This document shows positions 1,848 through 60,434 of a stretch of 64,000 bases of DNA, piece by piece (position 1 is the stretch's first letter; each line of letters opens with the position of its first letter). The translations under genes and the position numbers were made by a program. The notes under the pieces were generated by a model. It worked only from the letters and a program-made list of their open reading frames with translations. It was not told the origin of the DNA and ran no database searches. The stretch comes from an uncultured Candidatus Saccharibacteria bacterium (GTDB lineage Bacteria; Patescibacteriota; Minisyncoccia; Phycocordibacterales; UBA9973). The stretch is from positions 3,697 through 67,696 of the forward strand of contig CAZKPK010000001.1 in the NCBI GenBank assembly GCA_964554645.1. Reading direction: 5' to 3'.

Positions 1848-4400
1848 TCAATTGTTTTTTAACCGTAATGAATTCAAAACCACGCTGATACTGCTAAAGG
1901 CCATGGCGACAGCGGCAAAAATCGGGTTGAGCAAAATTTTGAAAAATGGATATAGAATTCCGGCGGCGACAGGAATAAAGGCAATATTGTAAAAAAATGC
2001 CCAGAAAAGATTTTGTTTTATTATTCTCATTGTCCGTCTGGAAATTTTTATAACTTCCCAAATAAGCATCAGGTCGCCTCTCATTAAAGTGATATTAGCC
2101 GACTCCATCGCGATATCCGTGCCCTCTCCCATAGCGATGCCGATATTGGCTTGAGTAAGCGCTGGAGCGTCGTTGATACCATCGCCGATCATGGCCACAA
2201 TTTTTCCTTGATTTTGAAGCTCGCGAACTTTTTCTGACTTTTTATCGGGCAGAACTTCGCTCATTACATTGTTTATACCCACTTCCGCCGCAATCGCTCT
2301 GGCAGTGCGGTTGTTATCTCCGGTAATCATCCAGACGTCTATCTTGTTTTTTTGAAGAGCCTGAACCGCTTCTCTGGATTCCTTCTTTAACACATCGGCG
2401 ACAGCTAGTGCGCCCTTTATTTTTTTATCAACGGCAAGAATCATCACCGTTTTCCCTTCATTTTCAAGCTTGGCAATATCGATCTCATAGGGAGAAATGT
2501 CAAGATTAATATCTAAAATCAGGGTCCGGTTTCCCAAATACGCCTCAACTTTTTGAGATTCAATTTGCAAAATTCCCCGTAACCCTTTTCCAGAGATGGC
2601 CTTAAAATTTTCCAATTTATACAATCCAATTTTTTCTTTTATTACTTCATCCAAGATCGCTTGATCAAGAGGGTGGGAAGATTTTTGATCTAAACTTGCG
2701 GCATATTGCAATATGGCTTGCGCTAAAGGATGTTCCGATCGCTGTTCGAGCGAAGCGGCTAAATTAAGGATCTCCGTCCGATGGCCATTATTGAAAGCGA
2801 TAATATCAGTCAACTGTGGTTTCCCTTGAGTCAAAGTTCCAGTTTTATCCAAGATAATTGTATCTATCTTGCCTCCGATTTCGAGCGAAGTGGCGTCTTT
2901 AATCAAAATTCCTCTGGTAGCGGCGTTGCCAGAGGAAACCATAATAGCCATCGGAGTGGCAAGCCCGAGCGCGCAAGGGCAGGCAATTATCAGAACTGCC
3001 ACAAAATTAACAAGCGCAAAAGTGAAAGCGGGATTCGGTCCAAAGAAAAACCAAATAAGGAAAGTTAGAACAGCGACGATAAATACCGCCGGAACGAAAT
3101 AAGAAGAAACCAGATCGGCTAATCGCTGAATCGGCGCTTTAGAGCCTTGAGCCTCTTCCACCATTTTGATGATTTGCGAAAGCATCGTGTTTTTGCCAAT
3201 CTTGGTCGCGCGGAAGGTAAAGGCTCCGAATTTATTTATAGTGCTGCCGATGACCAAACCGCCAACTTTCTTGTGAACCGGCATGGATTCTCCGGTAATC
3301 ATTGATTCATCAATTTCTGATTCTCCTTCGGTTATTTTGCCGTCAACTGGAATTTTTTCTCCGGGTCGAACAACTATCAAATCCCCAACCTGCACTTCGG
3401 ATATCGGTATTTCAACTTCTTTGCCATCCCGCAGAATTTTTGCGGTTTTGGGCTGTAAGCCAATAAGTTTTTTAATAGCTTCGGAAGCCCTTCCTTTCAT
3501 CAAAATCTCAAAATATTTTCCCAAGAGAATTAAAACAATAATGATTGCCGAAGTGTCAAAATAGGTTGCCGGTGTTATTCCGCCCTTGGTGAAAAAAACG
3601 GGAAAGACTGTGACCGCTAGGCTGTAAAAATATGCCGCCAGCGTTCCGATGGCAATCAGGGTATTCATATCAGCCGTGCGGTATTTTATAAGAAGCTTCA
3701 GCCCGCTATAAAACTGAAAACCTACCCAAAACTGCACCGGCGTTGTCAGTAAAAGAAGCGTCCAATTGTTGTTCATAATTTTGGGCACAAAAGAAAACCA
3801 CTCCGGAAAACTGCCCAAAAATATAAAAAGCGAAAGAATGCCACCGATAATAAGTTTGCGTTTCATAATTTTTACCTGTCTTTCTCGCTCGATTTTTTCT
3901 TTATCCAAAATTTCTTCTGCCTCGCCTTCTTCTTTAATTGGCTTGTAGCCGGCGTCAGAAATAACCTTGAAAATTTGATCGATATTTACTAGAGAATAAT
4001 TAAAAATCACTTTGGCCCGCTGGTTTGAAAAATCTACATCAATATTTTTTATGCCCGATAATTTTTTGATAGCTCCCTGCACGACCATGGCGCAATGCGG
4101 AGAATCCATGCCTAAAACTTTTATTGAAATTGTTTTATTATCACCGCTAACAACGAGTTCGTCTTTTTTAGTAGAGCCAACATTAACATTTTTAGAAACT
4201 AAATGATATCCTGCTCCACTTACCGCCTTTTCAAGGCTTGATTCGGAAATAATATTTTCATCAAATTCAATTAAGGCTGATTCCGAAGCAAAATTGACCG
4301 AAGCTGAATGCACTCCGGCTGTCTTAGAAAGCACGCGCTCAATTGTCGCCACGCAACTCGCGCAATGCATTCCTTGAATTTTATATGTTTCCTTTTTCAT
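1848..4400 (-). CDS. copA: copper-translocating P1B-type ATPase
   Basis: 850 aa; two HMA domains (GMHCASC; [10 protein letters not shown]), CPC motif [20 protein letters not shown] phosphorylation site, GDGINDAP hinge. Confidence 0.97.
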
Positions 4401-4441
4401 TTTATGAGTTTTTGTTTATTTGTATGCATAGTTACAGTTCA

Positions 4442-4469
4442 AGTATATACCCCCTAGGGGTATTGTCAA
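4442..4469 (-). promoter_or_regulatory. copA promoter with CsoR-type inverted-repeat operator in the spacer
   Basis: Minus strand reads TTGACA (4469-4464), 16-nt spacer, TATACT (4447-4442). The spacer is filled by ATACCCC-N3-GGGGTAT (4447-4463). Confidence 0.6.
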
Positions 4470-4601
4470 CAATACCTGTTGAAAACTAAGAATTAACTCG
4501 AGGTAATATGGTATAATAACTTGGTCGGTCATTATAAACTTTTTAATCAAATCTATCCATGATTAAAGGAGATCATTAAGAAATAGTTTACTTGTTCTAA
4601 A

Positions 4602-4632
4602 AAGAGGCAGCATCAGCTGTCTCTTTTGTGTT
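4602..4632 (+). terminator. terminator-like hairpin + U-tract immediately upstream of the ATP-grasp ORF
   Basis: 10-bp stem AAGAGGCAGC/GCTGTCTCTT (one G.U), loop ATCA, followed by TTGTGTT; ends 4 nt before ATG 4636. Confidence 0.4.
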
Positions 4633-4635
4633 ATC

Positions 4636-5853
4636 ATGCTACAAATGAATGAACCATCTGTGAAAAAAAGTTCTTGCTCTTATTGTGGGGATGCTTCCAT
4701 CAATCATACTCTTTCTTTTTTAGAGAGCGTGATTTCAATTACTCTTGATAATCAGGCAAAGAAATTTATAAAATACGTTCCCTTTTTCATAAAAAATTTT
4801 GCTGACTTGGTTCCTGAATTTTTATTTAGAACTCTTGCCTTTTTGAAACTCGCCGAATTCTCGGGAGATATAAATAAAGCGAATACTTTTCGTTCCAGAA
4901 TTATCTGGGAAGAAGCAAAAAGAAGGGGAATAATAATGGAACAGGTGATATTTCTCGATAGGCCCTTAGATTATTATCGCGCAATAATAAAAATTAAAAA
5001 TAAGAAAAAAAATATTTATTTTGAGAGTCTTCCTGTAAAGCCAGAATTTTTAGATCTGAGTAAAAATTGGGATGATAAAGTTATACTCAAGCAGGAATTC
5101 AAGAAGCAGAATATCCCAGTTCCAGCTTATTTTGAGCTCTCTCCTTTTTCACTTTTTGGTTTCAAAAATAAAAATATAGAAAAAATATTTTCCAAATTAC
5201 CTAAGCCCATAGTGGTCAAACCGCGAGTAGGATCTCGTGGCAGGCATACTATCACCAATATTAATACCATCCAACAATTAGAAGAAGGTATTAATGTCGC
5301 CGGGCAAATATGCTCCTATCTTGTTGCTGAAGAGCATTTACAAGGTAGTGTTTGCCGGGCAACTTTTGTGAATGGAGTGCTTGCGGGATTTTATAAAGGC
5401 CACGCTCCAACTCTCTTGGGTGATGGGAAAAGGACGATTCAAGAACTTATTAAGGAAAAAGATAGTAGACGTCATAATCGAGTCGAGCCCATACGTGTTT
5501 CAAAAGAGTTACACGATCATATTTTACGATCAGGATTTACCATTCTTGATATTTTGCCCATTGGAGTTTCTTTATCTCTAACGCATCGCATCGGCCGATT
5601 ATTTGGAGGGAGAACTATAGAAATGATTGATGATCTTCACCCGAGCTTTATCTCTATTTTAGAAGAGGCTGCAAAAATTGTAGGCTTATCTGTGGTAGGA
5701 TTTGATTGCATTATACCTGACACAACCAAAGATGCTCATTCACAGAAGTGGGGGATTATTGAATGTAATTCTTTACCCTTTATAGATTTGCATTATTATG
5801 CCTTAGAGGGCAAACCTAGAAATATTGCCGGCATGATCTGGGACTTGTGGTGA
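4636..5853 (+). CDS. ATP-grasp domain protein (RimK/cyanophycin-synthetase-like)
   Basis: 405 aa; VVKPRVGSRGRHT glycine-rich ATP-grasp loop, AEEHLQG, ECNSLPFIDLH; N-terminal CSYCG; exact start uncertain. Confidence 0.6.
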   Translation: MLQMNEPSVKKSSCSYCGDASINHTLSFLESVISITLDNQAKKFIKYVPFFIKNFADLVPEFLFRTLAFLKLAEFSGDINKANTFRSRIIWEEAKRRGIIMEQVIFLDRPLDYYRAIIKIKNKKKNIYFESLPVKPEFLDLSKNWDDKVILKQEFKKQNIPVPAYFELSPFSLFGFKNKNIEKIFSKLPKPIVVKPRVGSRGRHTITNINTIQQLEEGINVAGQICSYLVAEEHLQGSVCRATFVNGVLAGFYKGHAPTLLGDGKRTIQELIKEKDSRRHNRVEPIRVSKELHDHILRSGFTILDILPIGVSLSLTHRIGRLFGGRTIEMIDDLHPSFISILEEAAKIVGLSVVGFDCIIPDTTKDAHSQKWGIIECNSLPFIDLHYYALEGKPRNIAGMIWDLW

Positions 5854-7243: not shown

Positions 7244-8383
7244 ATGGATAATCCGTTTAAAAAAATATTTTCCAGTATAAGAAATCTCACAAAAAGTGGA
7301 GAAGATAGCGCTGTTGGCATTGATATTGGTTCTTCCGCAATCAAGGTGGTTGAGATAAAAAGGAAAAGAGGCAAAGTGGTGCTTGAAACCTATGGAGCAA
7401 TAGCTCTTGGTTCCTATGACGCCCTTGATGTGGGGCGTGTCACCAATCTCTCGGTTGAAAAGATGGCGGAAGCTCTCAAGGAGGTCTTGAAGCAGTCCGG
7501 GATTACCACTACTTCAGGGGCTTTTTCTATTCCCATCCAATCAAGTTTAATTTTTGCCGTTGAACTTCCGGTTCAGGCTAAAGAAAGCGAGATAGCGACA
7601 ATTATTCCCACTGAAGCTCGCAAGTATATTCCGGTGCCAATTACGGAAGTTTCTCTTGATTATTTTATCTTGCCTCAAAAAGAACCTTCTTTTGAAGAGA
7701 TGAATGCAGTTGTTGATAATCCCGACATTCCGCAAAAGCCGACAGATAAAACAAGCGTGCTTGTGGTGGCGACGCAAAATGACGCAATTTCCAAATATCG
7801 TTCCATCGTTTCTCAATGCTCTCTCTCCGCCTCTTTTTTTGAAATTGAAATATTTTCTTCAATCAGGGCGAATTTTGAACACGAACTTTCTCCAGTGCTG
7901 TTGATGGATTTCGGCGCCTCCCGCACGAAACTCTCTTTGGTTGAGTTTGGAATGGTCAAAAGTTACCATACGATAGATAAAGGGGGAGCCGATATAACCG
8001 ACTCTATTTCCAAATCTTTAAGTATTCCTTTCAGTGAGGCGGAAAAAATGAAAAAAGAATTTGGTCTCTTTGAAAATCCGGTGGAAAAAAGTTTGTCGGA
8101 TATCATCAGAATCCATATTGATTATATTTTTTCTGAAGCCAATAATGTGCTGTTGGAGCATGAGAAAAGATACAATAAAACTATAAGCAAAGTGATATTT
8201 ACAGGCGGCGGATCTCTTTTGAAGGGGCTGAAAGAAGTGGCGGCAAATAATTTTCGAGCGGAAATAGAAATCGGCCATCCTTTCAGCAAGGTCAATGCTC
8301 CAGCCTTTTTGGAAAAAGTTTTGGAAACGATGGGTCCCGAATTCGCCGTCGCCTTGGGACTGGCGTTGCGAAAGTTGCAGTAA
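7244..8383 (+). CDS. pilM: type IV pilus assembly protein PilM (actin-like ATPase)
   Basis: 379 aa; GIDIGSSAIKVVEI N-terminal actin-fold motif, FTGGGSLLKGL. Confidence 0.9.
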   Translation: MDNPFKKIFSSIRNLTKSGEDSAVGIDIGSSAIKVVEIKRKRGKVVLETYGAIALGSYDALDVGRVTNLSVEKMAEALKEVLKQSGITTTSGAFSIPIQSSLIFAVELPVQAKESEIATIIPTEARKYIPVPITEVSLDYFILPQKEPSFEEMNAVVDNPDIPQKPTDKTSVLVVATQNDAISKYRSIVSQCSLSASFFEIEIFSSIRANFEHELSPVLLMDFGASRTKLSLVEFGMVKSYHTIDKGGADITDSISKSLSIPFSEAEKMKKEFGLFENPVEKSLSDIIRIHIDYIFSEANNVLLEHEKRYNKTISKVIFTGGGSLLKGLKEVAANNFRAEIEIGHPFSKVNAPAFLEKVLETMGPEFAVALGLALRKLQ

Positions 8384-8389
8384 AAAATT

Positions 8390-8437
8390 ATCCACCCCGT
8401 CCTTTGATTACAAAGTCCACCCCTCAAGAGGGGAATC
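8390..8437 (+). repeat. family A hairpin repeat (unit)
   Basis: ATCCACCCCG-[CCTTTGATTACAAAG]-TCCACCCCTCAAGAGGGGAATC; 47 nt identical to 16013-16059; starts 7 nt after pilM stop. Confidence 0.9.
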
Positions 8438-8444
8438 AGAAAAA

Positions 8445-8945
8445 ATGAAAGAAACTACCCCAAAAAAAGAAAAGTTTAAAGAAGTAATTGTTTCAGATGA
8501 AATTAGAAAATATCTTTCAGAAGCTACATGGCTGAAAGAGGGGGAAGATGTTAGACTCCCGGATTATATAAGACTCAAAACTGAAATAAGAGATATTTTA
8601 GTCCGAGTTGGAATTTGGTCGGATGAATTTTCTAAATGGCTAGATATGAATCTTGACGGTGTAAGTTTGCTGGGCAAACAAATTGAGGCAGTAGGCCAAT
8701 GGATGGAACGCAAAGATAATAAATATAGAAAAGAAAACTTAGAACATTACCGTGCTGGTGCAAAAACAAGCCTAGAATATTTGGAAGGCTGGTCTCCAGC
8801 ATTTGAAAAGTGGCTTCTTGATGGTTTGCCAGGAGATCTGCAAAAAGTTGGTGAAAACATGGATTATATAGGGAGAGTGTCTAGCACTATCGGAGCTATT
8901 AATATGGCAAAAAGATTGCTTAAGAAAAAAAAAGATCAAAAGTAA
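8445..8945 (+). CDS. hypothetical protein (accessory insertion in pil operon)
   Basis: 166 aa from ATG 8445 (MKETTPKKEKF...). The track ORF 8295 start reads through repeat A1 and overlaps pilM, so it is trimmed. Confidence 0.6.
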   Translation: MKETTPKKEKFKEVIVSDEIRKYLSEATWLKEGEDVRLPDYIRLKTEIRDILVRVGIWSDEFSKWLDMNLDGVSLLGKQIEAVGQWMERKDNKYRKENLEHYRAGAKTSLEYLEGWSPAFEKWLLDGLPGDLQKVGENMDYIGRVSSTIGAINMAKRLLKKKKDQK

Positions 8946-9026
8946 ACTATATTTCAACATGAGGAAGCGATATAAACAGAAAAGTAATAATCTAGATTAA
9001 AATAACTATATGCGCAATAGGCAACC

Positions 9027-9112
9027 ATCCACCCCGTCTCGACTAAAGTCGAGTCACCCCTCAAGAGGGGAACGTCCACCCCGACGCAAGCGTCACCCCT
9101 CAAGAGGGGAAT
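9027..9112 (+). repeat. family A repeat, tandem pair
   Basis: Two units: ATCCACCCCG-TCTCGACTAAAGTCGAGT-CACCCCTCAAGAGGGGAA and TCCACCCCG-ACGCAAGCGT-CACCCCTCAAGAGGGGAAT. Confidence 0.9.
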
Positions 9113-9162
9113 GGAATCCAAAATCTCTATATCCATATTGGGAAATTCCTAAAAACAAAATT

Positions 9163-9522
9163 TTGACTGATAGGGCAAAAGATTTAAGAAAGGCGGGTAA
9201 TTTATCTGAAGTTATTTTTTGGCAAACTTTTAAAGATAAAAATAAATTAGGTTTTGATATTGATAGACAAGTTATAATCGGCAATTATATTGTAGATTTT
9301 TTTATTCCCGAACTAGGTTTAGTTTTTGAGATAGACGGTTCAAGTCATGACGATAAGCTTGAATATGATGCTGAACGAGATGCTTTTATGAGAGATTTAA
9401 ATTTAAAAGTGGTTAGAATTCTTGATATTGATGTGAAGAAGAATCTAGGAAGTGTCTATCAATTTGTATTAGAAACAATACATAAAAGAAAAAAGGATGC
9501 ATTTGAATTATTCCCCTCTTGA
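9163..9522 (+). CDS. DUF559 (Vsr-like/PD-(D/E)XK) endonuclease-domain protein
   Basis: LRKAGNLSEVIFWQ..GFDIDRQVIIGNYIVDFFIPELGLVFEIDGSSH matches the DUF559 core. TTG 9163 is my start guess; ORF upstream to 9010 is repeat-encoded. The TGA stop lies inside the right-hand repeat. Confidence 0.75.
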   Translation: MTDRAKDLRKAGNLSEVIFWQTFKDKNKLGFDIDRQVIIGNYIVDFFIPELGLVFEIDGSSHDDKLEYDAERDAFMRDLNLKVVRILDIDVKKNLGSVYQFVLETIHKRKKDAFELFPS

Positions 9523-9596
9523 GGGGTACTCCGACTTCAGTCGGAGTGGGGTGGATGTATGAGGGGTGACCCGATGACCATCGGGTCGGGGTGGAT
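9510..9596 (-). repeat. family A repeat, tandem pair in inverted orientation
   Basis: ATTCCCCTCTTGAGGGGTA-CTCCGACTTCAGTCGGAG-TGGGGTGGAT + GTATGAGGGGTG-ACCCGATGACCATCGGGT-CGGGGTGGAT; reverse complement of family A consensus. Confidence 0.9.
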
Positions 9597-9665
9597 AGCT
9601 GTAGAACCAGAGTTATGCACATTATATTTCACTTAAGTTTGTTTTTGTAATATAATTAAGATACG

Positions 9666-10271
9666 ATGGAGCAGAGTTTCCAAACATCATTTATACCTAA
9701 AAAACCGATAGTGAAAGAACGCGCCATTCCGGCGCGACCTATTGGTATTTTTATCATCATTACTATTTTTGTTTTATTCACCGTGCTTTTGGCAACCGTC
9801 GCTCTTTATTTCTATAAAGGGATTTTGGCAAAGAACATTACGCAAATGGAGAATGACTTAAATCTGGCTAAAAATCGTTTTGAACCTTCTAAAATAACGG
9901 AGCTCCAGCTATTAGACAAGCGTCTGCGCGCATCAAGTGAAGTTCTGTCTCATCATATAGCTATCACGCCTGTCTTTCAAGCATTGCAAGCCATTACTAT
10001 GAAAACTGTCCGTTATACTAAGTTCAGTTATGATTTTGGGAATACGAAAGATGCGAAAGATACGAAAGTGATTATCAAATTAAGCGGCCAGGCAGTCGGT
10101 TATCGCTCGGTTGCTCTGCAATCTGATCTTTTTGCTAAAAATAAAAATTTAATTGATCCAGTTTTTTCCAACCTGGCGCTTGATGACAAAGGCAATGTCC
10201 TTTTTGATCTGGAATTTTCGGTCGATCCGTCTTTGGTTGATTATAAGCAAATGCTCTTAACCCAAAGTTAA
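9666..10271 (+). CDS. PilN-like pilus assembly membrane protein
   Basis: 201 aa; single TM (IGIFIIITIFVLFTVLLATVALYF); position in pilM-N-O series; call is position/topology based. Confidence 0.55.
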   Translation: MEQSFQTSFIPKKPIVKERAIPARPIGIFIIITIFVLFTVLLATVALYFYKGILAKNITQMENDLNLAKNRFEPSKITELQLLDKRLRASSEVLSHHIAITPVFQALQAITMKTVRYTKFSYDFGNTKDAKDTKVIIKLSGQAVGYRSVALQSDLFAKNKNLIDPVFSNLALDDKGNVLFDLEFSVDPSLVDYKQMLLTQS

Positions 10272-10276
10272 TTTTT

Positions 10277-10897
10277 ATGATGCGATTTATTCTGCCAATT
10301 ATTTTGTTAGGAATCAGCGTGGCTGTTTTTATCATGTTCTCTAATCCTATTTACAATGATATTGGGGGATTGCGCGCGCAGACAGCGTCCTTCAATGAAG
10401 CGCTAAATAATTCCAAAATGCTTGAAAATGAACGAGATAAATTAACTTCCAAATATAATTCTATTGATATAGATAATTTAGCAAAACTCCAAAAGCTTTT
10501 GCCGGAAAATATTGACAATATACGCTTGATTCTTGAGATAGAACAGATAGCCTTGCCTTACGGCATGGCCTTGAAGGATGTAAAATACAATGCGACAGCT
10601 GACAAAGATAAAGCAAGCTCTGCGTCTCCTGTAGCCGGGGTTGCGCAAGGTGGCGAAACGGTCCAATCTTCTTCCAAAGATTATGGAGTTTGGGATTTGG
10701 AGTTTTCCACAACCGGTGCTTACAGCAATTTTCTTAATTTTACAAGAGATCTGGAAAGCAATCTTCGAATTGTCGATATATCATCAATTGCTTTTTCATC
10801 TGATACGAGTAGTGATTCCAGTTCGGCCCCCAAGTCTCCGTCTACCGAATCTTATAAATATAATTTTAAAATTAAGACTTACTGGCTAAAAAATTGA
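10277..10897 (+). CDS. PilO-like pilus assembly membrane protein
   Basis: 206 aa; N-terminal TM then coiled coil (LRAQTASFNEALNNSKMLENERDKL); position based. Confidence 0.55.
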   Translation: MMRFILPIILLGISVAVFIMFSNPIYNDIGGLRAQTASFNEALNNSKMLENERDKLTSKYNSIDIDNLAKLQKLLPENIDNIRLILEIEQIALPYGMALKDVKYNATADKDKASSASPVAGVAQGGETVQSSSKDYGVWDLEFSTTGAYSNFLNFTRDLESNLRIVDISSIAFSSDTSSDSSSAPKSPSTESYKYNFKIKTYWLKN

Positions 10898-15957: not shown

Positions 15958-16059
15958 GATTCTCCTCTTGAGGAGTACTCCGACTCAGGTCGGAGGGAGG
16001 TGGATGAGTTTTTCCACCCCGTCCTTTGATTACAAAGTCCACCCCTCAAGAGGGGAATC
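15958..16059. repeat. family A inverted doublet (REPIN-like)
   Basis: Reverse unit GATTCTCCTCTTGAGGAG..GGGAGGTGGAT (15958-16005) faces forward unit TCCACCCC..CCCCTCAAGAGGGGAATC (16013-16059); 18-nt terminal inverted repeats, 2 mismatches. Confidence 0.9.
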
Positions 16060-17077: not shown

Positions 17078-17470
17078 ATGAATATAAATGAGTTGCAATC
17101 AAAAATGATACCTTTGGCGGAAAAATACAATTTAAAATTAGTTGTTCTTTTTGGTTCGCAGGCTAGTGGACGGACACACAAAAGAAGCGACATAGATATA
17201 GCTGTTATTGGAAAAGTTGCTTTTGATATGACCAGACTCACAATTGATTTTTACAATCTTTTTAATAGAGAAGATGTAGAAATCGTTGATATCAGTAGCG
17301 CTTCGCCCACGACGATGTATGTAGTTGTCCGAGACGGAAAATTGTTATATGAAAGCGAATCCGGGGCTTTTTTGAAATGGAAACTTTATGCAATGTGGGT
17401 TTGGCGAGATACTGCATGGCTAAGAAGATTGCGCGATAAAAAATTGGTAGAGTGGGCCAAAACGGCATAA
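17078..17470 (+). CDS. nucleotidyltransferase-domain antitoxin (MNT/MntA-like)
   Basis: 130 aa from ATG 17078; LFGSQASGRTHKRSDIDIAV (GS..DxD NTase motif). Confidence 0.85.
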   Translation: MNINELQSKMIPLAEKYNLKLVVLFGSQASGRTHKRSDIDIAVIGKVAFDMTRLTIDFYNLFNREDVEIVDISSASPTTMYVVVRDGKLLYESESGAFLKWKLYAMWVWRDTAWLRRLRDKKLVEWAKTA

Positions 17471-17483
17471 TTCAATAATTCAT

Positions 17484-17912
17484 ATGATACAAAAAGACAC
17501 CATAAAAAAAATAGCTGTTATTCAAGATTATTTGAATGCTCTAGCTCTTTACTTGAAAATTCCTACGGAGGAATTATTGGAAAACAATGAAAAGCGAGCT
17601 GCCATGGAACGTTATTTTATTCTCATGGCAGATGAGGCTTTTGACATCAATAGTGCTTTGGCTTATCAACTCGGTAACAGGATTCCCGAATCAAATAAGT
17701 CAACGTTTTATGAAATAGCGAATTTGGATATAATCAGCAGAGAATTTGCGGATGAGATTTCATTATCCGCGAAGACGAGAAATAATCTCGTTCACGACTA
17801 TGAGAAGGTTCAAGAAAGCGTTCTCATTGAAGAAATGAAGAAATATGCGGAGTTATATAAAAAATATGTAAAGATTCTGATTGAAAAATTTGTGGCAGAT
17901 ATAGGGAAGTAG
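17484..17912 (+). CDS. HEPN/DUF86 toxin (HepT-like)
   Basis: 142 aa; RNNLVHDY = Rx4HxY HEPN motif; directly follows MNT gene. Confidence 0.85.
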   Translation: MIQKDTIKKIAVIQDYLNALALYLKIPTEELLENNEKRAAMERYFILMADEAFDINSALAYQLGNRIPESNKSTFYEIANLDIISREFADEISLSAKTRNNLVHDYEKVQESVLIEEMKKYAELYKKYVKILIEKFVADIGK

Positions 17913-29438: not shown

Positions 29439-31367
29439 ATGAAAATTTCTTATAATTGGCTCAAATGGTATATACCGGAAGCGCCTCCCGCAAACAAACT
29501 TGCGGATATTTTTAATTACCATATTTGCGAAGTGGAGAGTGTCCAACACCGAGTGTTGGACAAAGATAAAGATTGGATTTTTGATTTAAAAGTTTTGCCG
29601 AACCGCGCGCATGATTTACTTTCACATCAGGGAGTCGCTCGCGAGCTTGCTTCACTTTTAGATATCAAATATGTAGATCCCACGCCGAAATATAAAATTC
29701 CCGCCTCCGCCAAGGCTGCCCCCTTCGCTGAAGTGGCTACGAAGGCCAAGTCGGCGGGCAAGCCGGAATTAAAAATTGATGTTCAAACGCCTTTATGCAG
29801 GCGATATATGGGCAGAATTATAAGGGGAATAAAAATCGGTCCCAGTCCGGAGTGGATGGTGAAGCATTTAGAATCAATAGGACAGAGAAGTATAAATAAT
29901 ATTGTAGATGCCGCCAATATTGTAATGTTTGATTGCGGACAGCCGACTCATGCTTTTGATCTGGATAAAATGAATAGCAAGATAATAGTGCGCGAGGCAG
30001 AAAATGACGAAGACATAACCACTTTAGATAATCAGGGAATAAAATTAAAAAGTTCAAATATGGTGATTGTAGATTCTAAAAATATTTTAGCGATTGCCGG
30101 AATAAAAGGCGGGAAGATTGCGGAAGTGGACAATAATACAAAAAATATAATTCTTGAGGTTGCTAATTTTGATCCGGTTTCGGTGCGGAAAACAGCTCAA
30201 GCCTTTAATCTATTTACCGACGCGCGAAAGAGGTTTGAAAATGACCTGTCGCCAGAATTGGCACCATATGCCATGCGCGAACTCTCGGCTCTCATTTTTG
30301 AAATGTGTCCGGACGCTATTTTTGAAGATGTTGTGGATGTTTACCCCCACACCAATGATATTGGTGTGGGGGTTTATCCTGAAAAACAAAAGGAGAAAAA
30401 ACTTTCTTTTTCGGCTGAAAGAATTTCAAAAATTTTAGGACTCAAAGTTTCAGTTAAAGAAATAGAAAATATTTTGCAGAGATATAATTTTAGGTATAAA
30501 GAAAATAAAGGGAAATTTGAGGTTGTTGTGCCACCGATGCGTCTTGATTTAGCAATAGAAGAAGATATGGCGGAAGAGATAGGTAGAATTCTGGGATATG
30601 ATAAAGTAAAACCACAAATTCCCCACATGTCTGACATGTGGGAACCACAGGTTAATGAGATTTATGCAAAAATTTCCTGGGTCAGAAATAAATTATTGGC
30701 TGATGGATATTCCGAAGTGATGACTTATACTTTTCGAGAAAAGGGAGAAATAGAAGTGCAAAATAGCGCTTCCGATAAAAAGTTTTTGCGAACGAATTTA
30801 ACTGATGGATTGAAAGAAAGCGTTAAATTAAATCACGCCAATGCCCCGCTGTTAGGAATTGACGAAATTAAAGTTTTTGAAATTGGAACTGTTTTCAAAA
30901 AAGATAAAGAGCAGATAAATATTTGTTTTAGTGACAAAAAAAATATCACAGAAGTTTCTTTAAATGATTTTTGTAAAGATATGCTTTCTAGTGATTCTCC
31001 TCTTGAGGAGTACCCTTTAGGGGGAGGTGGAAAATTTATCCACCCCGTCGCAAGCGCCACCCCTCAAGAGGGGAATAGATTCAAGATGTGGTCTTTGTTT
31101 CCTTTCATTGCGCGCGATATCGCTGTCTTTGTGCCGGAAAAAATTAAGAGTTTGGAAATAGAAAAAATAATAAAAAAGAATATGGGAAATATGGTGATTC
31201 GAGGTCCGGAACTTTTTGATGAATTCAAAAAAGGCAATCAGATTTCTTATGCCTTCAGATTGGTTTTTCAATCTTACGATCGGACACTGACAGACGCAGA
31301 AGTGAATGAAATTATGGATAAAATAACTGACAAAATTAAGAAGAATAAAGGTTGGCAAGTAAGGTAA
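29439..31367 (+). CDS. pheT: phenylalanine--tRNA ligase beta subunit (reduced architecture, several repeat-derived inserts)
   Basis: 642 aa; MKISYNWLKWYI, LPNRAHDLLSHQGVAREL, B3_4 IVDAANIVMFDCGQPTHAFDLDK, C-terminal FPFIARDIAVFV. Confidence 0.93.
   Translation: MKISYNWLKWYIPEAPPANKLADIFNYHICEVESVQHRVLDKDKDWIFDLKVLPNRAHDLLSHQGVARELASLLDIKYVDPTPKYKIPASAKAAPFAEVATKAKSAGKPELKIDVQTPLCRRYMGRIIRGIKIGPSPEWMVKHLESIGQRSINNIVDAANIVMFDCGQPTHAFDLDKMNSKIIVREAENDEDITTLDNQGIKLKSSNMVIVDSKNILAIAGIKGGKIAEVDNNTKNIILEVANFDPVSVRKTAQAFNLFTDARKRFENDLSPELAPYAMRELSALIFEMCPDAIFEDVVDVYPHTNDIGVGVYPEKQKEKKLSFSAERISKILGLKVSVKEIENILQRYNFRYKENKGKFEVVVPPMRLDLAIEEDMAEEIGRILGYDKVKPQIPHMSDMWEPQVNEIYAKISWVRNKLLADGYSEVMTYTFREKGEIEVQNSASDKKFLRTNLTDGLKESVKLNHANAPLLGIDEIKVFEIGTVFKKDKEQINICFSDKKNITEVSLNDFCKDMLSSDSPLEEYPLGGGGKFIHPVASATPQEGNRFKMWSLFPFIARDIAVFVPEKIKSLEIEKIIKKNMGNMVIRGPELFDEFKKGNQISYAFRLVFQSYDRTLTDAEVNEIMDKITDKIKKNKGWQVR
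29700..29758. repeat. GC-rich imperfect long hairpin inside pheT
   Basis: CCCGCC..CCTTCG / CGAAGG..GGCGGG arms; translated PASAKAAPFAEVATKAKSAG; strong local GC excess. Confidence 0.55.
30343..30373. repeat. 31-nt perfect palindrome inside pheT
   Basis: ACCCCCACACCAAT-GAT-ATTGGTGTGGGGGT; flanked by GTTTAC/GTTTAT; translated YPHTNDIGVGV. Confidence 0.85.
30622..30642. repeat. family B variant palindrome inside pheT
   Basis: CCCACATGTCTGACATGTGGG (21 nt), translated PHMSDMW (compare HRSDLW from canonical copies). Confidence 0.8.
30993..31076. repeat. family A inverted doublet inserted in frame in pheT
   Basis: GATTCTCCTCTTGAGGAG..GGGAGGTGGA + ATCCACCCCGTCGCAAGCGCCACCCCTCAAGAGGGGAAT; 84 nt = 28 codons (DSPLEEYPLGGGGKFIHPVASATPQEGN). 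Confidence 0.9.
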
Positions 31368-58788: not shown

Positions 58789-59316
58789 ATGATAAAACTT
58801 ATTTTAATAGTTGGATTAATTGTAAATTATGTACCTAAATTTAGACTTAGTGTTTTTAAACAATTAAAATCTTTAAGAAAGATTTCGTTGATACTTTTTG
58901 AAATCATAATACCTTTGGTAGCCATAATTCAATTATATTTATTAAATCCAAAAAATAATTTCATTACATATATGGGAATTATAATTTTTTCTATTGGAAT
59001 TGTATTAGGAACAATCGCTCGTTTACAGCTACGAGAAAATTATCTACCCATCTTAGCCACAAGTCCTTCAAGCAGAATTATTACTAACGGTATTTATGCA
59101 TATATCAGACATCCGATTTACTTTGGTACGATATTAACTATCATGGGTTTTGAATTAGTTCTCTTTCCTTTTCTGTCTTTAATGATTTTAATCATAATTC
59201 CAATACTTGTTTGGCAAATTAACAAAGAAGAAAAGCTTCTTTTTAAACATCTCAAAAAAGAATGGGAAATATATATTTTAAGAACTCCTTTTAAATTAAT
59301 ACCTTTTGTATATTAA
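58789..59316 (+). CDS. isoprenylcysteine carboxyl methyltransferase (ICMT)-family membrane protein
   Basis: 175 aa; GIYAYIRHPIYFGTIL, multi-TM. Confidence 0.75.
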   Translation: MIKLILIVGLIVNYVPKFRLSVFKQLKSLRKISLILFEIIIPLVAIIQLYLLNPKNNFITYMGIIIFSIGIVLGTIARLQLRENYLPILATSPSSRIITNGIYAYIRHPIYFGTILTIMGFELVLFPFLSLMILIIIPILVWQINKEEKLLFKHLKKEWEIYILRTPFKLIPFVY

Positions 59317-59551
59317 CAACCAAAACAACAGCTAGATTTTACTTAGCCAAAAGGTTAAATTTTTTTACAGCTTAAAATAAATTTTTAAGACCCTTTTTTA
59401 CTTTACTTAAATTTTTAGCATCCAATTTTTTTTATGTCTATTTGTTTATGCTTGATATCTTTAACCGAATAAATTTCCGGTTCATCAGCTAAAAAATCAA
59501 AACTCTTTGAATATGCGTTTATATTCGTTATTAATGAAAAGACGCGTTAAA

Positions 59552-59596
59552 ATTCCCCTCTTGAGGGGTGGCTCGGTAATCCGAGACGGGGTGGAT
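59552..59596 (-). repeat. family A repeat unit directly after dsbA-like stop
   Basis: ATTCCCCTCTTGAGGGGTGG-CTCGGTAATCCGAG-ACGGGGTGGAT. Confidence 0.9.
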
Positions 59597-59601
59597 GTAT
59601 T

Positions 59602-60330
59602 TTATTTCAACGCATTATCAATTTTTGGTTTTACCATTGTCCAAGATTCAGCGCCGTCGATGGTGGCGACAATTTTGCCGTTTTTCAAAATAAATCCTTT
59701 CGGGGTGCCTGTGACCCCCGCAGTCGTTCCTTCTTTTTTAGAATCAGCCACGGCTTGCGCGTATTTACTTTGATCTAAACACTGGTCAAACTGAACAACA
59801 TTTAATCCCAAATTTTTGGCAAAATATTTTAAATTCGGATCAGAAAAATTTCCCTTGTTTTCTCCATTTTGGTGAGTATAGAGATAATCATGATATTCCC
59901 AGAATTTACCCTGATCTCCAGCGCATCTCGCAGCCTCGGCTGATCTTACGGATTCCGGTCCCAAAAACGCGAAGTCTCGATACACAAATTGCACATTCCC
60001 GTTTTTTACATAATCATTAATACCAATCATAAACGGAGTCCAGCTTGGATCGATTTGTTTTAAGTATTTAATAACATCTGTATCAGACACTAAACCGGAA
60101 ACTGCTCCACAGAAAGGGCATTGAAAATCTTCATATAAAATAAGCGCAACCTTCGCATTTGAATTTCCAAGCACTCGATCTTCTTTTTCAACTGGGGCTA
60201 AAGATGTTATAGAAACCCCATTATCTACCGGATTCTGCGCCCCGCTGTCTTTTAGCAGAATCGCTCCGGCTATAATGATTCCGGCTACAATTATTGCTCC
60301 GGCTATTTGTTTTTGGTTGTCATTTTGCAT
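59602..60330 (-). CDS. DsbA-family thiol:disulfide oxidoreductase, membrane anchored
   Basis: 242 aa; N-terminal TM, YEDFQCPFCG active site, GVTGTPKGFIL cis-Pro loop. Confidence 0.88.
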   Translation of the reverse strand: MQNDNQKQIAGAIIVAGIIIAGAILLKDSGAQNPVDNGVSITSLAPVEKEDRVLGNSNAKVALILYEDFQCPFCGAVSGLVSDTDVIKYLKQIDPSWTPFMIGINDYVKNGNVQFVYRDFAFLGPESVRSAEAARCAGDQGKFWEYHDYLYTHQNGENKGNFSDPNLKYFAKNLGLNVVQFDQCLDQSKYAQAVADSKKEGTTAGVTGTPKGFILKNGKIVATIDGAESWTMVKPKIDNALK

Positions 60331-60336
60331 TTGCGC

Positions 60337-60345
60337 ATTATAGCA
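60337..60345 (-). promoter_or_regulatory. extended -10 (TGcTATAAT) 6 nt upstream of dsbA-like ATG
   Basis: Minus strand reads TGCTATAAT-gcgcaa-ATG. Confidence 0.45.
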
Positions 60346-60434
60346 TTGTTTTTAAAAATGTGCTATATTAAGGACATTAAAATTATTGTCTGATAGTCGT
60401 TCGGACAAATTATTTATTATTAATTTTAAAATGT

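What the first reader, a model, noticed from the sequence alone, without database searches (positions are those of the whole stretch)
8384..9665. A 1.2-kb repeat-bounded accessory insertion splits pilM from pilN/pilO
pilM (ends 8383) and the PilN-like gene (starts 9666) are normally adjacent. Here they are separated by repeat A1, a hypothetical 166-aa gene, a double A repeat, the DUF559 gene and an inverted double A repeat. The segment begins and ends with family A units in opposite orientation (8390 forward, 9596 reverse), so it has the outline of a composite insertion.
Basis: partly seen in the sequence, partly recalled or inferred. Interest (0 to 1): 0.5.

Follow-up and report, generated by a model that had tools for sequence, protein, structure and literature searches.

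The report
Nuclease-and-repeat selfish module inside pilus operon
The 1.3 kb between pilM and pilN is added accessory DNA made of a small DUF559 nuclease gene wedged between inverted two-hairpin repeats plus an orphan gene cassette, and the same nuclease-in-repeats design recurs in dozens of related genomes, which hints at what this widespread uncharacterised nuclease family does.

Summary
The window is a Candidatus Nomurabacteria (CPR) contig. In 70 of 78 species-level relatives, pilM and pilN lie 22-234 nt apart; here they are 1,282 nt apart.

It is not one composite transposon. The core is a DUF559 (Vsr-like) endonuclease gene between inverted 47-nt "A" units. Its ORF starts before the left units and stops at a TGA inside the right unit. 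This module stands alone in the nearest relatives (PilM 94% identical). It recurs in more than 50 contigs, at three or more recurrent intergenic sites. It is under strong purifying selection, and its phylogeny disagrees with that of the flanking genes.

ORF166 is a separate orphan cassette between direct A units. It is patchily distributed and less diverged at synonymous sites than pilM and pilN.

A units have a variable hairpin with compensatory changes and a fixed CCCCT-CAAG-AGGGG hairpin. They are essentially absent from relatives without DUF559.

All insertions sit upstream of a conserved pilN promoter-like element, so pilN-pilO expression is probably spared.

My best mechanism is inferred, not shown: a homing-type nuclease acts on REP-like repeats, and recombination between repeats shuffles cassettes. 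E. coli ycjD shows a similar layout.

The parts
7244..8383 (+). pilM, the upstream flank of the insertion
   Evidence: Pfam PilM_2, E 2.1e-39. 6006 homologues, the closest from Candidatus Nomurabacteria.
8390..8436 (+). A1: forward 47-nt A unit (ATCCACCCCG, variable hairpin, CACCCCTCAAGAGGGGAAT)
   Evidence: The same hairpin variant occurs at 16012-16058 and in L006 and L039. Two independent assemblies break inside this first unit.
8445..8945 (+). ORF166: orphan accessory gene, predicted all-helical, function unknown
   Evidence: No match in Pfam, NCBIfam or PADLOC, and only a non-significant PHROGs hit at E 0.09. Only 5 proteins found in the 5.8-billion-sequence search. dN/dS about 0.3. AlphaFold2 pLDDT 84.7, with no specific fold match.
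8959..9000 (+). 13-codon remnant of a small basic ORF that is intact (45 aa) in L105
   Evidence: The first 25 nt or so match the ORF at L105 3773-3910.
9010..9522 (+). DUF559 (Vsr-like PD-(D/E)XK) endonuclease ORF, 170 aa. It reads through A2 and A3 and stops at TGA 9520-9522 inside A4.
   Evidence: Pfam PF04480, E 1.5e-21. dN/dS 0.02-0.18. Invariant D62/E73/D75/H79/D86 in alignment A3. PDB 3HRL at 1.9e-28 and 3R3P at 0.0044.
9027..9072 (+). A2: forward A unit, lying inside the DUF559 ORF
   Evidence: (pair I1).
9074..9112 (+). A3: forward A unit with a short hairpin (ACGCAAGCGT), lying inside the DUF559 ORF
9510..9556 (-). A4: reverse A unit. It contains the DUF559 stop codon.
   Evidence: pair I1 (47 nt, 81% complementary to 9026-9072); 34 of 50 homologues stop at this same TGA.
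9560..9596 (-). A5: reverse A unit lacking the terminal ATTCCCCTCT
   Evidence: families D2, I2, I10. A degenerate counterpart is present in L083.
9611..9656 (+). Conserved pilN-proximal promoter-like element (AGTTATGCACA...TTTTGTAATATAAT)
   Evidence: Present just upstream of pilN in all relatives with the long type of junction, and downstream of every large insertion. TTCACT-17-TATAAT at 9628-9656.
9666..10271 (+). PilN-like gene, the downstream flank (assigned by position only)
   Evidence: Follows pilM and precedes pilO in all 78 relatives. No Pfam or NCBIfam hit.
10277..10897 (+). pilO
   Evidence: Pfam PilO, E 2.3e-07.
15959..16058 (.). Dispersed doublet: a reverse B-variant unit plus a forward A unit, between pilC and the pilin gene
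30994..31076 (.). Dispersed doublet: a reverse B-variant unit plus a forward A unit
59552..59596 (-). Solo reverse A unit. It sits at the position where 12 other contigs carry the right-hand unit of a DUF559 module.

Best explanation
The pilM-pilN spacer, between the pilM stop codon and a conserved pilN promoter, is a permissive landing zone. In this lineage it holds two nested accessory modules, both built on a REP-like 47-nt two-hairpin repeat (the A unit).

Module 1 is a DUF559 (Vsr-like) endonuclease gene embedded between inverted A units. Its start codon lies before the left units and its TGA stop lies inside the right unit.

Module 2 is an orphan gene cassette (ORF166) lying between direct A units.

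Shown here:
- The DNA is non-ancestral.
- The DUF559-in-repeats module is a conserved, self-contained unit that recurs at several sites.
- Its phylogeny disagrees with that of its flanks.
- The repeat family co-occurs with DUF559.
- The variable hairpin is maintained by compensatory change.

Inferred:
- DUF559 is a selfish, homing-type nuclease that nicks or cuts the palindromic A units, or their extruded hairpins.
- Repair by recombination between A units copies the nuclease gene into other A-marked sites.
- The same recombination adds, swaps or deletes neighbouring cassettes such as ORF166.
- pilN and pilO keep their own promoter, so the pilus machinery still works.

My confidence is about 0.9 that this is accreted accessory DNA of this modular design. 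It is about 0.45-0.5 that DUF559 itself acts on the repeats.
For: Insertion:
- 70 of 78 relatives have a 22-234 nt gap.
- All 8 large gaps lie upstream of the conserved promoter-like element.

The module:
- Of 47 evaluable copies at 65% identity or more, 38 have an in-frame ATG before the left unit. Of 50, 34 stop at the TGA in CCCCTCTTGAGGGG.
- A G/C-armed hairpin is present in both flanks in 40 of 45 copies (65% identity or more) and in 18 of 24 (50-64%). Background is 0.045 per flank.
- The motif and its orientation change with the protein clade.

Co-occurrence:
- 849,393 bp from 78 pil loci without DUF559 hold 1 A unit.
- 52,369 bp from 5 loci with DUF559 hold 16.

Mobility:
- Three recurrent sites are occupied.
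- Window against L083: pilM and pilN dS are 0.49 and 0.48, but DUF559 dS is 0.93 and its protein identity is 77%. Copies at other sites or in more distant hosts are 89-91% identical.
- ORF166 dS is 0.44-0.56, against pilM dS of 1.2-1.4.
- ORF166 is absent from the nearest relatives but present in L105 and L167.

The enzyme is functional:
- dN/dS is 0.02-0.18.
- Catalytic-type residues are invariant from CPR to E. coli YcjD.

Precedent:
- After 3HRL, the next PDB relative is the EDxHD homing endonuclease I-Bth0305I (3R3P, E 0.0044). That enzyme cuts a pseudopalindromic target (PMC3239194).

Repeat structure:
- 100 of 104 distinct hairpin-1 sequences fold.
- 90.8% of cells are paired against 73.4% in shuffles, and 116 against 45 cells have changes on both sides.

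Independent hints:
- DUF559 CDSs are enriched (odds ratio 14) among genes overlapped by inverted repeats (PMC9881135).
- E. coli ycjD stops inside a G/C hairpin and lies next to a dispersed repeat with a median of 19 places per genome.
Against: - There is no biochemical evidence that any DUF559 protein binds or cuts these repeats. The link rests on association and co-variation.
- Whole genomes could not be surveyed, so copy numbers of units and of DUF559 per genome are unknown.
- In a single-gene NJ tree of PilM, the window, L083-85, L093, L006 and L167 form one clade in which every member has DUF559 at this junction. Part of the sharing may therefore be vertical, with later gene conversion or faster evolution in the L083 lineage.
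- The empty pilB-response-regulator site in the window has no A unit at all. Insertion there is not simply homing into a pre-existing repeat.
- The protein is a bare 130-aa catalytic domain with no recognisable DNA-binding module.
- Some distant homologues have a unit on one side only (L135, L148, L161).
Confidence: 0.6

Rival explanations
1. The A units are REP- or MITE-like elements mobilised in trans by some other enzyme, for example a RAYT-like Y1 transposase. DUF559 is merely a passenger gene, or a gene that uses the hairpins as its own expression or termination signals.
For: - RAYT-like Y1 transposase genes, flanked by their own palindromes, sit in the same pilM-pilN spacer in L025, L039 and L069 and next to an ORF166 homologue in L166.
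- A units also bound many unrelated small cassettes.
- The stop codon lying inside a hairpin is conserved as far as E. coli ycjD. This could reflect mRNA 3'-end stabilisation.
Against: - The RAYT-like genes carry a different palindrome family, not A units.
- Units are practically absent from 849 kb of relatives that lack DUF559.
- The repeat motif co-varies with the DUF559 clade down to about 40% identity. That is hard to explain for a passenger gene.
Confidence: 0.2
2. One reading: the whole 8390-9596 segment is one composite mobile element bounded by inverted A units, and it inserted in a single event.
For: - The outer units are in inverted orientation (pair I10).
- L167 and L105 share the order pilM, A, ORF166, A, DUF559.
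Against: - The nearest relatives have DUF559 with its own inverted units but no ORF166.
- L006 has a different small ORF in the ORF166 position.
- ORF166 and DUF559 show different divergence from the same partner genomes.
- An ORF166 homologue occurs without DUF559 in L166.
- There is no transposase gene and no target-site duplication.
Confidence: 0.05
3. The inverted units that overlap both ends of the DUF559 ORF are the arms of a programmed inversion switch. The switch would turn the nuclease gene on and off.
For: - DUF559 and 'endonuclease domain-containing' CDSs are enriched among predicted programmed-inversion targets (odds ratios 14.3 and 9.6; PMC9881135).
- The arms are 47 nt long and 81% complementary.
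Against: - In all 33 or so contigs with recognisable flanks, DUF559 has the same orientation relative to the same flanking genes. No inverted allele was seen.
- No invertase gene lies nearby.
- The units are dispersed elsewhere without any gene between them.
Confidence: 0.05
4. ORF166 and DUF559 are ancestral members of the pilus operon and were lost in most relatives.
For: A clade of six contigs shares DUF559 at this junction.
Against: - 70 of 78 species lack them, including deep and shallow branches.
- The same DUF559 module occupies other sites in other genomes.
- Other lineages hold entirely different cargo at the same spot.
- Divergence of the cargo is discordant with that of the flanks.
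- Neither gene has any pilus-related domain.
Confidence: 0.03

Closest known systems
REP/REPIN elements with their RAYT (TnpA-REP) gene, as in E. coli and Pseudomonas
   Same: - Short structured palindromic repeats are dispersed in intergenic DNA, often as inverted doublets.
- A small nuclease-type gene is bracketed by inverted repeat copies.
- The repeat sequence co-varies with the protein clade.
- There are no target-site duplications.
   Different: - The associated gene is a Vsr-like PD-(D/E)XK DUF559 protein, not an HUH Y1 (IS200/IS605-type) transposase.
- The unit has two hairpins, one hypervariable and one fixed, and has no GTAG or CGTC head.
- The ORF itself runs through the repeats.
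EDxHD homing endonucleases (I-Bth0305I; PDB 3R3P; PMC3239194)
   Same: - The catalytic core is Vsr-like. A profile of 16 DUF559 proteins hits 3R3P at E 0.0044.
- It is a selfish gene with a pseudopalindromic target.
- Its phylogeny disagrees with that of the host genes.
   Different: - I-Bth0305I carries an N-terminal NUMOD/HTH DNA-binding region and lives in a group I intron or in inteins.
- The gene here is a free-standing single domain of about 130-170 aa in intergenic DNA, flanked by dispersed repeats.
YcjD of E. coli and NGO0050-like 3HRL (DUF559, PF04480)
   Same: - Same domain family (Pfam E 1.5e-21; 3HRL E 4e-09 with the single sequence and 1.9e-28 with the profile).
- ycjD also ends at a TGA inside a G/C hairpin and lies next to a dispersed G/C-rich palindromic repeat.
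   Different: - Only 26% identity to YcjD.
- The function of YcjD is unknown, and I found no published link to repeats.
- That the E. coli repeat is 'boxC' is my recollection. I did not test it.
Integron gene cassettes with attC sites
   Same: - Small, mostly promoter-less ORFs in one orientation are separated by structured sites.
- The stems of those sites are conserved in structure but variable in sequence.
   Different: - No integrase is associated.
- The units are 47 nt with strongly conserved ends, occur in both orientations, and are dispersed singly around the genome.
Canonical type IV pilus pilMNOPQ operon
   Same: pilM, pilN-like and pilO occur in this order, followed by the pilB, pilT and pilC genes.
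   Different: 1.28 kb of unrelated accessory DNA separates pilM from pilN. pilN appears to have its own promoter.

Membership tests
DUF559 (PF04480), Vsr-like PD-(D/E)XK nucleases | Significant match to the Pfam model above its gathering score | tested here: met
   76.8 bits against a cut-off of 20.6, E 1.5e-21, covering model positions 3-108 of 109.
DUF559 (PF04480), Vsr-like PD-(D/E)XK nucleases | Conserved acidic and histidine catalytic-type residues | tested here: met
   D62, E73, D75, H79 and D86 are invariant in 16 sequences, including E. coli YcjD.
REP/REPIN-RAYT system | Short palindromic repeat dispersed in intergenic DNA, often as inverted doublets | tested here: met
   10 units at 5 sites in 64 kb, with doublets at 15959-16058 and 30994-31076. 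161 units in 348 kb of related loci.
REP/REPIN-RAYT system | The associated gene is an IS200/IS605-like HUH Y1 transposase (RAYT) | tested here: not met
   The bracketed gene matches only DUF559. Y1_Tnp-like genes in relatives carry a different palindrome.
REP/REPIN-RAYT system | GTAG or CGTC tetranucleotide head on the palindrome | tested here: not met
   The unit ends are ATCCACCCC and GAGGGGAAT (alignment A2).
EDxHD homing endonucleases | Vsr-like catalytic domain related to I-Bth0305I | tested here: inconclusive
   The profile hit to 3R3P has E 0.0044. The single sequence gives no hit.
EDxHD homing endonucleases | N-terminal NUMOD/HTH DNA-binding region | tested here: not met
   There is no domain other than DUF559. 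The N-terminus is encoded by the repeats themselves.
EDxHD homing endonucleases | Site-specific cleavage of an empty target, followed by copying of the gene into it | not testable with these tools
   The only evidence is indirect: recurrent sites, discordant phylogeny, and a solo unit at a site that is occupied elsewhere.
Insertion sequence or composite transposon | Transposase gene | tested here: not met
   Neither ORF matches any transposase family in Pfam, NCBIfam or PHROGs.
Insertion sequence or composite transposon | Target-site duplication flanking the terminal inverted repeats | tested here: not met
   By inspection of the flanks in the window, L083, L042 and L089, no direct duplication is present.
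Integron cassette array | Tyrosine-recombinase integrase (IntI) with an attI site adjacent to the array | not tested
   None of the genes called within 10 kb has an integrase domain. The rest of the genome was not available.
Type IV pilus pilMNO | PilM, PilN and PilO domains in consecutive genes | tested here: inconclusive
   PilM and PilO match Pfam. The 201-aa middle gene has no PilN hit and is assigned by conserved position only.

The most novel reading that the evidence does not exclude
DUF559 proteins are the dedicated partner nucleases of a class of G/C-armed palindromic dispersed repeats. These include the A units of CPR bacteria and similar repeats next to ycjD in E. coli. Together they would form a REP/RAYT-like gene-plus-repeat symbiosis that runs on a Vsr-like, homing-type nuclease rather than an HUH transposase. 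This would give a function both to a very large 'domain of unknown function' family and to orphan repeat families, and would explain the repeat-bounded cassette hot spots seen in streamlined CPR genomes.
Probability: 0.35. Interest if true: 0.8.

Novelty: new variant of a known kind. Interest (0 to 1): 0.6.

Why it matters
DUF559 is a very widespread bacterial protein family with no known role. Several dispersed palindromic repeat families likewise have no known partner enzyme.

Across some 70 independent contigs, the DUF559 gene is physically built into such repeats. The repeat family is nearly absent where the gene is absent. The repeat changes with the protein clade. Together this gives a concrete, testable hypothesis: DUF559 acts on these hairpins and drives their spread and local gene shuffling.

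It also shows that tiny CPR genomes keep defined safe spots, between a stop codon and the next promoter, where accessory cassettes come and go without breaking an essential operon.

For the pilus genes themselves the insertion is probably harmless.

Tried and rejected
- **Rfam.** A search of 8300-9750 at E up to 1 gave no known RNA family.
- **A decayed DUF559 relic** next to the solo unit at 59552-59596. Six-frame translation, tblastn and sensitive blastn gave only short AT-rich chance matches, so I rejected it.
- **Target-site duplications** around the DUF559 module. None was seen.
- **REP annotation around E. coli ycjD.** The RefSeq table lists none, so the sequence was read directly.
- **Literature.** I found no paper linking DUF559 or YcjD to dispersed repeats.
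- **Single-sequence search of PDB** finds only 3HRL. A profile was needed to reach 3R3P.
- **Integron-like and inversion-switch readings.** Both were considered and given low weight, for the reasons set out under the rival explanations.
Full report
**Source and observation**

The window is part of contig JACPLP010000008.1 of the MAG GCA_016186455.1, a Candidatus Nomurabacteria (Patescibacteria/CPR) genome.
- pilM, 7244-8383.
- Forward repeat unit A1, 8390-8436.
- A 166-aa ORF, 8445-8945.
- Two forward units, A2 (9027-9072) and A3 (9074-9112).
- A DUF559 ORF, 9010-9522.
- Two reverse units, A4 (9510-9556) and the truncated A5 (9560-9596).
- A PilN-like gene, 9666-10271, and pilO, 10277-10897.

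The repeat is not chance. The 18-mer core occurs 9 times against 0.02 expected, and the 5' box occurs 14 times against 1.7 expected. Further copies lie at 15959-16058, 30994-31076 and 59552-59596.

**Is it an insertion?**

I fetched the pilM region of 80 species-level relatives and measured the pilM-pilN distance.
- In 70 of the 78 loci with both genes the gap is 22-234 nt.
- Eight loci have 543-2245 nt.

There are two junction types:
- A compact type of 22-58 nt.
- A longer type that ends in a conserved element, AGTTATACACA...TTTTGTAATATAAT, just before pilN.

Every large insertion, including this one, sits between the pilM stop codon and that element. In the window the element is 9611-9656. 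It contains the only strong promoter-like match next to pilN, TTCACT-17-TATAAT at 9628-9656. pilN-pilO therefore probably keep their own promoter. This is inferred, not shown.

The cargo differs between lineages:
- RAYT-like Y1 transposases with their own palindromes (L025, L039, L069).
- A HicAB-like pair (L071).
- Other ORFs (L027, L045).
- DUF559 with A units (L006, L016).

The spacer is thus a hot spot.

**It is not one composite element**

The two closest relatives (PilM 94% and PilN 93.5% identical; L083, L085) have pilM, one forward A unit, DUF559, one reverse A unit plus a degenerate one, the promoter element, then pilN. They have no ORF166.

L006 has a different small membrane ORF where ORF166 would be. 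L167 and L105 have the order pilM, A, ORF166, A(A), DUF559.

In the window the best inverted pair is the inner one around DUF559: 47 nt, 81% complementary (pair I1). A1 is a direct repeat of A2.

ORF166 is an orphan gene.
- The search of 5.8 billion protein sequences found only five proteins.
- One of them (56% identity) sits beside a RAYT-like gene, between a different palindrome family.
- It is a real gene, with dN/dS about 0.3 and many invariant residues.
- It is predicted to be a helical bundle with no informative fold match.

**The DUF559 module**

A metagenome scan with the DUF559 core returned 80 loci at 37-91% identity.

Among copies at 65% identity or more:
- 38 of 47 have an in-frame ATG upstream of the left unit with no intervening stop. 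The unit is then translated as ...STPS-x-HPSRGE-W(N/D)PKSLYPYWEIPKNK.
- 34 of 50 stop at the TGA inside CCCCTCTTGAGGGG of the right, inverted unit.

The flanks were then scanned for a generic G/C-armed hairpin:

| DUF559 identity to window | Hairpin in both flanks |
|---|---|
| 65% or more | 40 of 45 |
| 50-64% | 18 of 24 |
| below 50% | 2 of 5 |

Background is 0.045 hairpins per flank.

In the 53-63% clade the units keep the same sequence but face the other way. Further clades carry variants such as CCCCTCCAGAGGGG, CCCCTCTGATAGAGGGG with AACACCCC, and TCCCCCCTTTATAGGGGGGA.

The protein is under strong purifying selection (dN/dS 0.02-0.18). It keeps invariant D, E, D, H and D residues from CPR to E. 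coli YcjD.

**Co-occurrence and dispersal**

In 849,393 bp from 78 pil loci without DUF559 there is a single A unit. In 52,369 bp from the five loci with DUF559 there are 16.

In 57 loci with a close DUF559, 127 units lie within 250 nt of the gene and 34 lie further away. Many of the distant ones bound other small cassettes: a P-loop kinase-like ORF, an alpha/beta-hydrolase-like ORF, membrane ORFs and orphans.

**Mobility**

By synteny with the window, DUF559 modules occupy three recurrent sites:
- pilM-pilN.
- pilB-response regulator.
- The site matching window 58762/59600, where the window has only a solo reverse unit. That unit sits exactly where other contigs have the right-hand unit of the module.

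The window's pilB-response-regulator site is empty and has no unit. In L042 it holds A, ORF91, A, DUF559 and a reverse A unit, again upstream of a conserved TTGTAGTATAAT.

The phylogenies disagree.
- Against L083, pilM and pilN have dS of 0.49 and 0.48, but DUF559 has dS 0.93 and 77% protein identity.
- Copies at other sites or in more distant hosts are 89-91% identical to the window's.
- ORF166 has dS 0.44-0.56 against L105 and L167, where pilM has 1.2-1.4.

A single-gene NJ tree of PilM places the window, L083-85, L093, L006 and L167 in one clade in which every member has DUF559 at the junction. Occupancy of this site is therefore old, and its content has been replaced or exchanged since. 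In all 33 or so contigs with recognisable flanks, the gene has the same orientation relative to the same neighbours. This argues against an inversion switch.

**The repeat unit**

The unit has four parts:
- A 5' box, (A/T)TCCACCCCG.
- Hairpin 1, with a 4-8 bp stem and usually a 4-nt loop.
- CA, followed by hairpin 2, CCCCT-CAAG-AGGGG.
- AAT.

Across 192 units there are 104 distinct hairpin-1 sequences, and 100 of them fold.

On a gap-free alignment of 46 distinct 47-nt units:
- 90.8% of cells pair, against 73.4% in shuffles.
- 116 cells have changes on both sides, against 45 in shuffles.
- All eight hairpin-1 pairs show double changes.
- Shifted registers score far lower.

A B variant (CCACCTCC ... 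ACTCCTCAAGAGGAG) changes the 5' box and both arms of hairpin 2 together. There are almost no G-U pairs, so nothing marks one strand as the functional one. That fits a DNA-level palindrome. No Rfam family matches.

**Comparison with what is known**

The overall design is that of REP/REPIN elements with their RAYT gene. However, the gene is not an HUH transposase and the palindrome lacks the GTAG/CGTC head, so it is not a member of that system.

The best-characterised structural relative after the unannotated 3HRL is I-Bth0305I, the founder of the EDxHD homing endonucleases (3R3P, profile E 0.0044). That enzyme is a Vsr-like dimer that cuts a pseudopalindromic site (PMC3239194). DUF559 here lacks its NUMOD/HTH region.

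A survey of inverted repeats overlapping genes found DUF559 CDSs enriched 14-fold (PMC9881135). This fits the layout seen here.

I found no paper connecting DUF559 or YcjD with dispersed repeats.

**E. coli ycjD, in passing**

- ycjD ends at a TGA inside CCCTCTCCCTGAAAGAGCGAGGGGG.
- It is followed by a partial duplicate of its own 3' end.
- Next comes a G/C-rich palindromic repeat present at a median of 19 places per E. coli genome.
- My own rough estimate is that about 20 copies in 4.6 Mb would lie within 200 nt of a given gene by chance about 0.2% of the time.

**Mechanism**

Shown:
- The segment is accreted, modular accessory DNA.
- The repeat and the gene are coupled.
- The hairpin is structurally constrained.
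- Module and cargo have been exchanged between genomes or sites.

Inferred:
- DUF559 nicks or cuts the units or their extruded hairpins.
- Recombination between units then copies the gene to other unit-marked sites.
- Direct units, such as A1 and A2 around ORF166, allow cassettes to be gained and lost. Deleting between A1 and A2 would give exactly the L083 arrangement.

I put about 0.9 on the structural reading and about 0.45-0.5 on DUF559 being the enzyme that acts on the repeats.

**Verdict**

The insertion reading is supported, and the composite-transposon reading is not. As a pilus-operon feature it is ordinary. The interest lies in the nuclease-in-repeats module.

Noticed in passing
L169 (E. 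coli K-12 NC_000913.3, 1351039-1351760; locus 4040-4761, minus strand): ycjD is the named E. coli DUF559 gene. It ends at a TGA inside the G/C hairpin CCCTCTCCCTGAAAGAGCGAGGGGG. It is followed by a partial duplicate of its own 3' end and then by a G/C-rich palindromic repeat found at a median of 19 places per E. coli genome. This is the same layout as in the CPR window.
   Followed up: partly
window 59552-59596: A solo reverse A unit abuts the 3' end of the convergent gene 59605-60351. It lies exactly where 12 metagenome contigs carry the right-hand unit of a DUF559 module. No DUF559 relic was detectable in 59300-59552.
   Followed up: yes
window 15959-16058 and 30994-31076: These are inverted doublets made of a B-variant unit (CCACCTCC / CTCCTCAAGAGGAG) and an A unit. 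The first starts 3 nt after a TAG stop codon and the second overlaps a TGA stop codon. In the B variant, the 5' box and both arms of hairpin 2 change together.
   Followed up: partly
L025 7137-8290, L039 7125-7964, L069 1632-2854: RAYT-like Y1 (HUH) transposase genes, flanked by their own palindromes such as CACTAGCTAGAAC...GTTCTAGCTAGTG, are inserted in the same pilM-pilN spacer in three other species.
   Followed up: partly
L004, L008, L019, L042, L045 (5' end of pilN): A palindromic insert of about 60-100 nt (ATGGATCCCGT.AGAAAT...ATTTCT.ACGGG) sits at the pilN start and duplicates the ATGGA. It looks like a separate MITE-like family that targets the start codon.
   Followed up: no
window 8959-9000: A 13-codon ORF (MRKRYKQKSNNLD) is the truncated remnant of a 45-aa basic ORF that is intact between ORF166 and DUF559 in L105 (3773-3910).
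   Followed up: partly
L002 1791-1828 and L084 2209-2246: Two independent short-read assemblies of close strains break inside the first A unit after pilM. In L084 the unit has a different hairpin (ACGCAAGCGT) from the one in L083. This points to strain-level variation or to repeat-induced assembly collapse.
   Followed up: no
L166 1424-2660: The most distant ORF166 homologue (56% identity) lies directly after a RAYT-like gene and between copies of that gene's palindrome (CCAGATAG.GCCTAAGGCGCTATCTG). The orphan gene is therefore cargo of two different repeat systems.
   Followed up: partly
window 17078-17912: A nucleotidyltransferase/HepT-like (MNT-HEPN) toxin-antitoxin pair sits inside the pilus gene cluster, after the pilin gene. 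It is another accessory insertion in this operon.
   Followed up: no
L071 7137-7680; L045 7128-9373: Other cargo occupies the same spacer. L071 has a HicAB-like pair. L045 has 2.2 kb of cargo containing two extra copies of the pilN promoter-like element.
   Followed up: no
L094, L112, L120, L102, L092 (within 800 nt of DUF559): A units bound a variety of other small cassettes next to DUF559 modules. They include a P-loop kinase-like ORF, an alpha/beta-hydrolase-like ORF, a uracil-DNA-glycosylase-like ORF, membrane ORFs and orphans. These labels come from reading the translations only.
   Followed up: no
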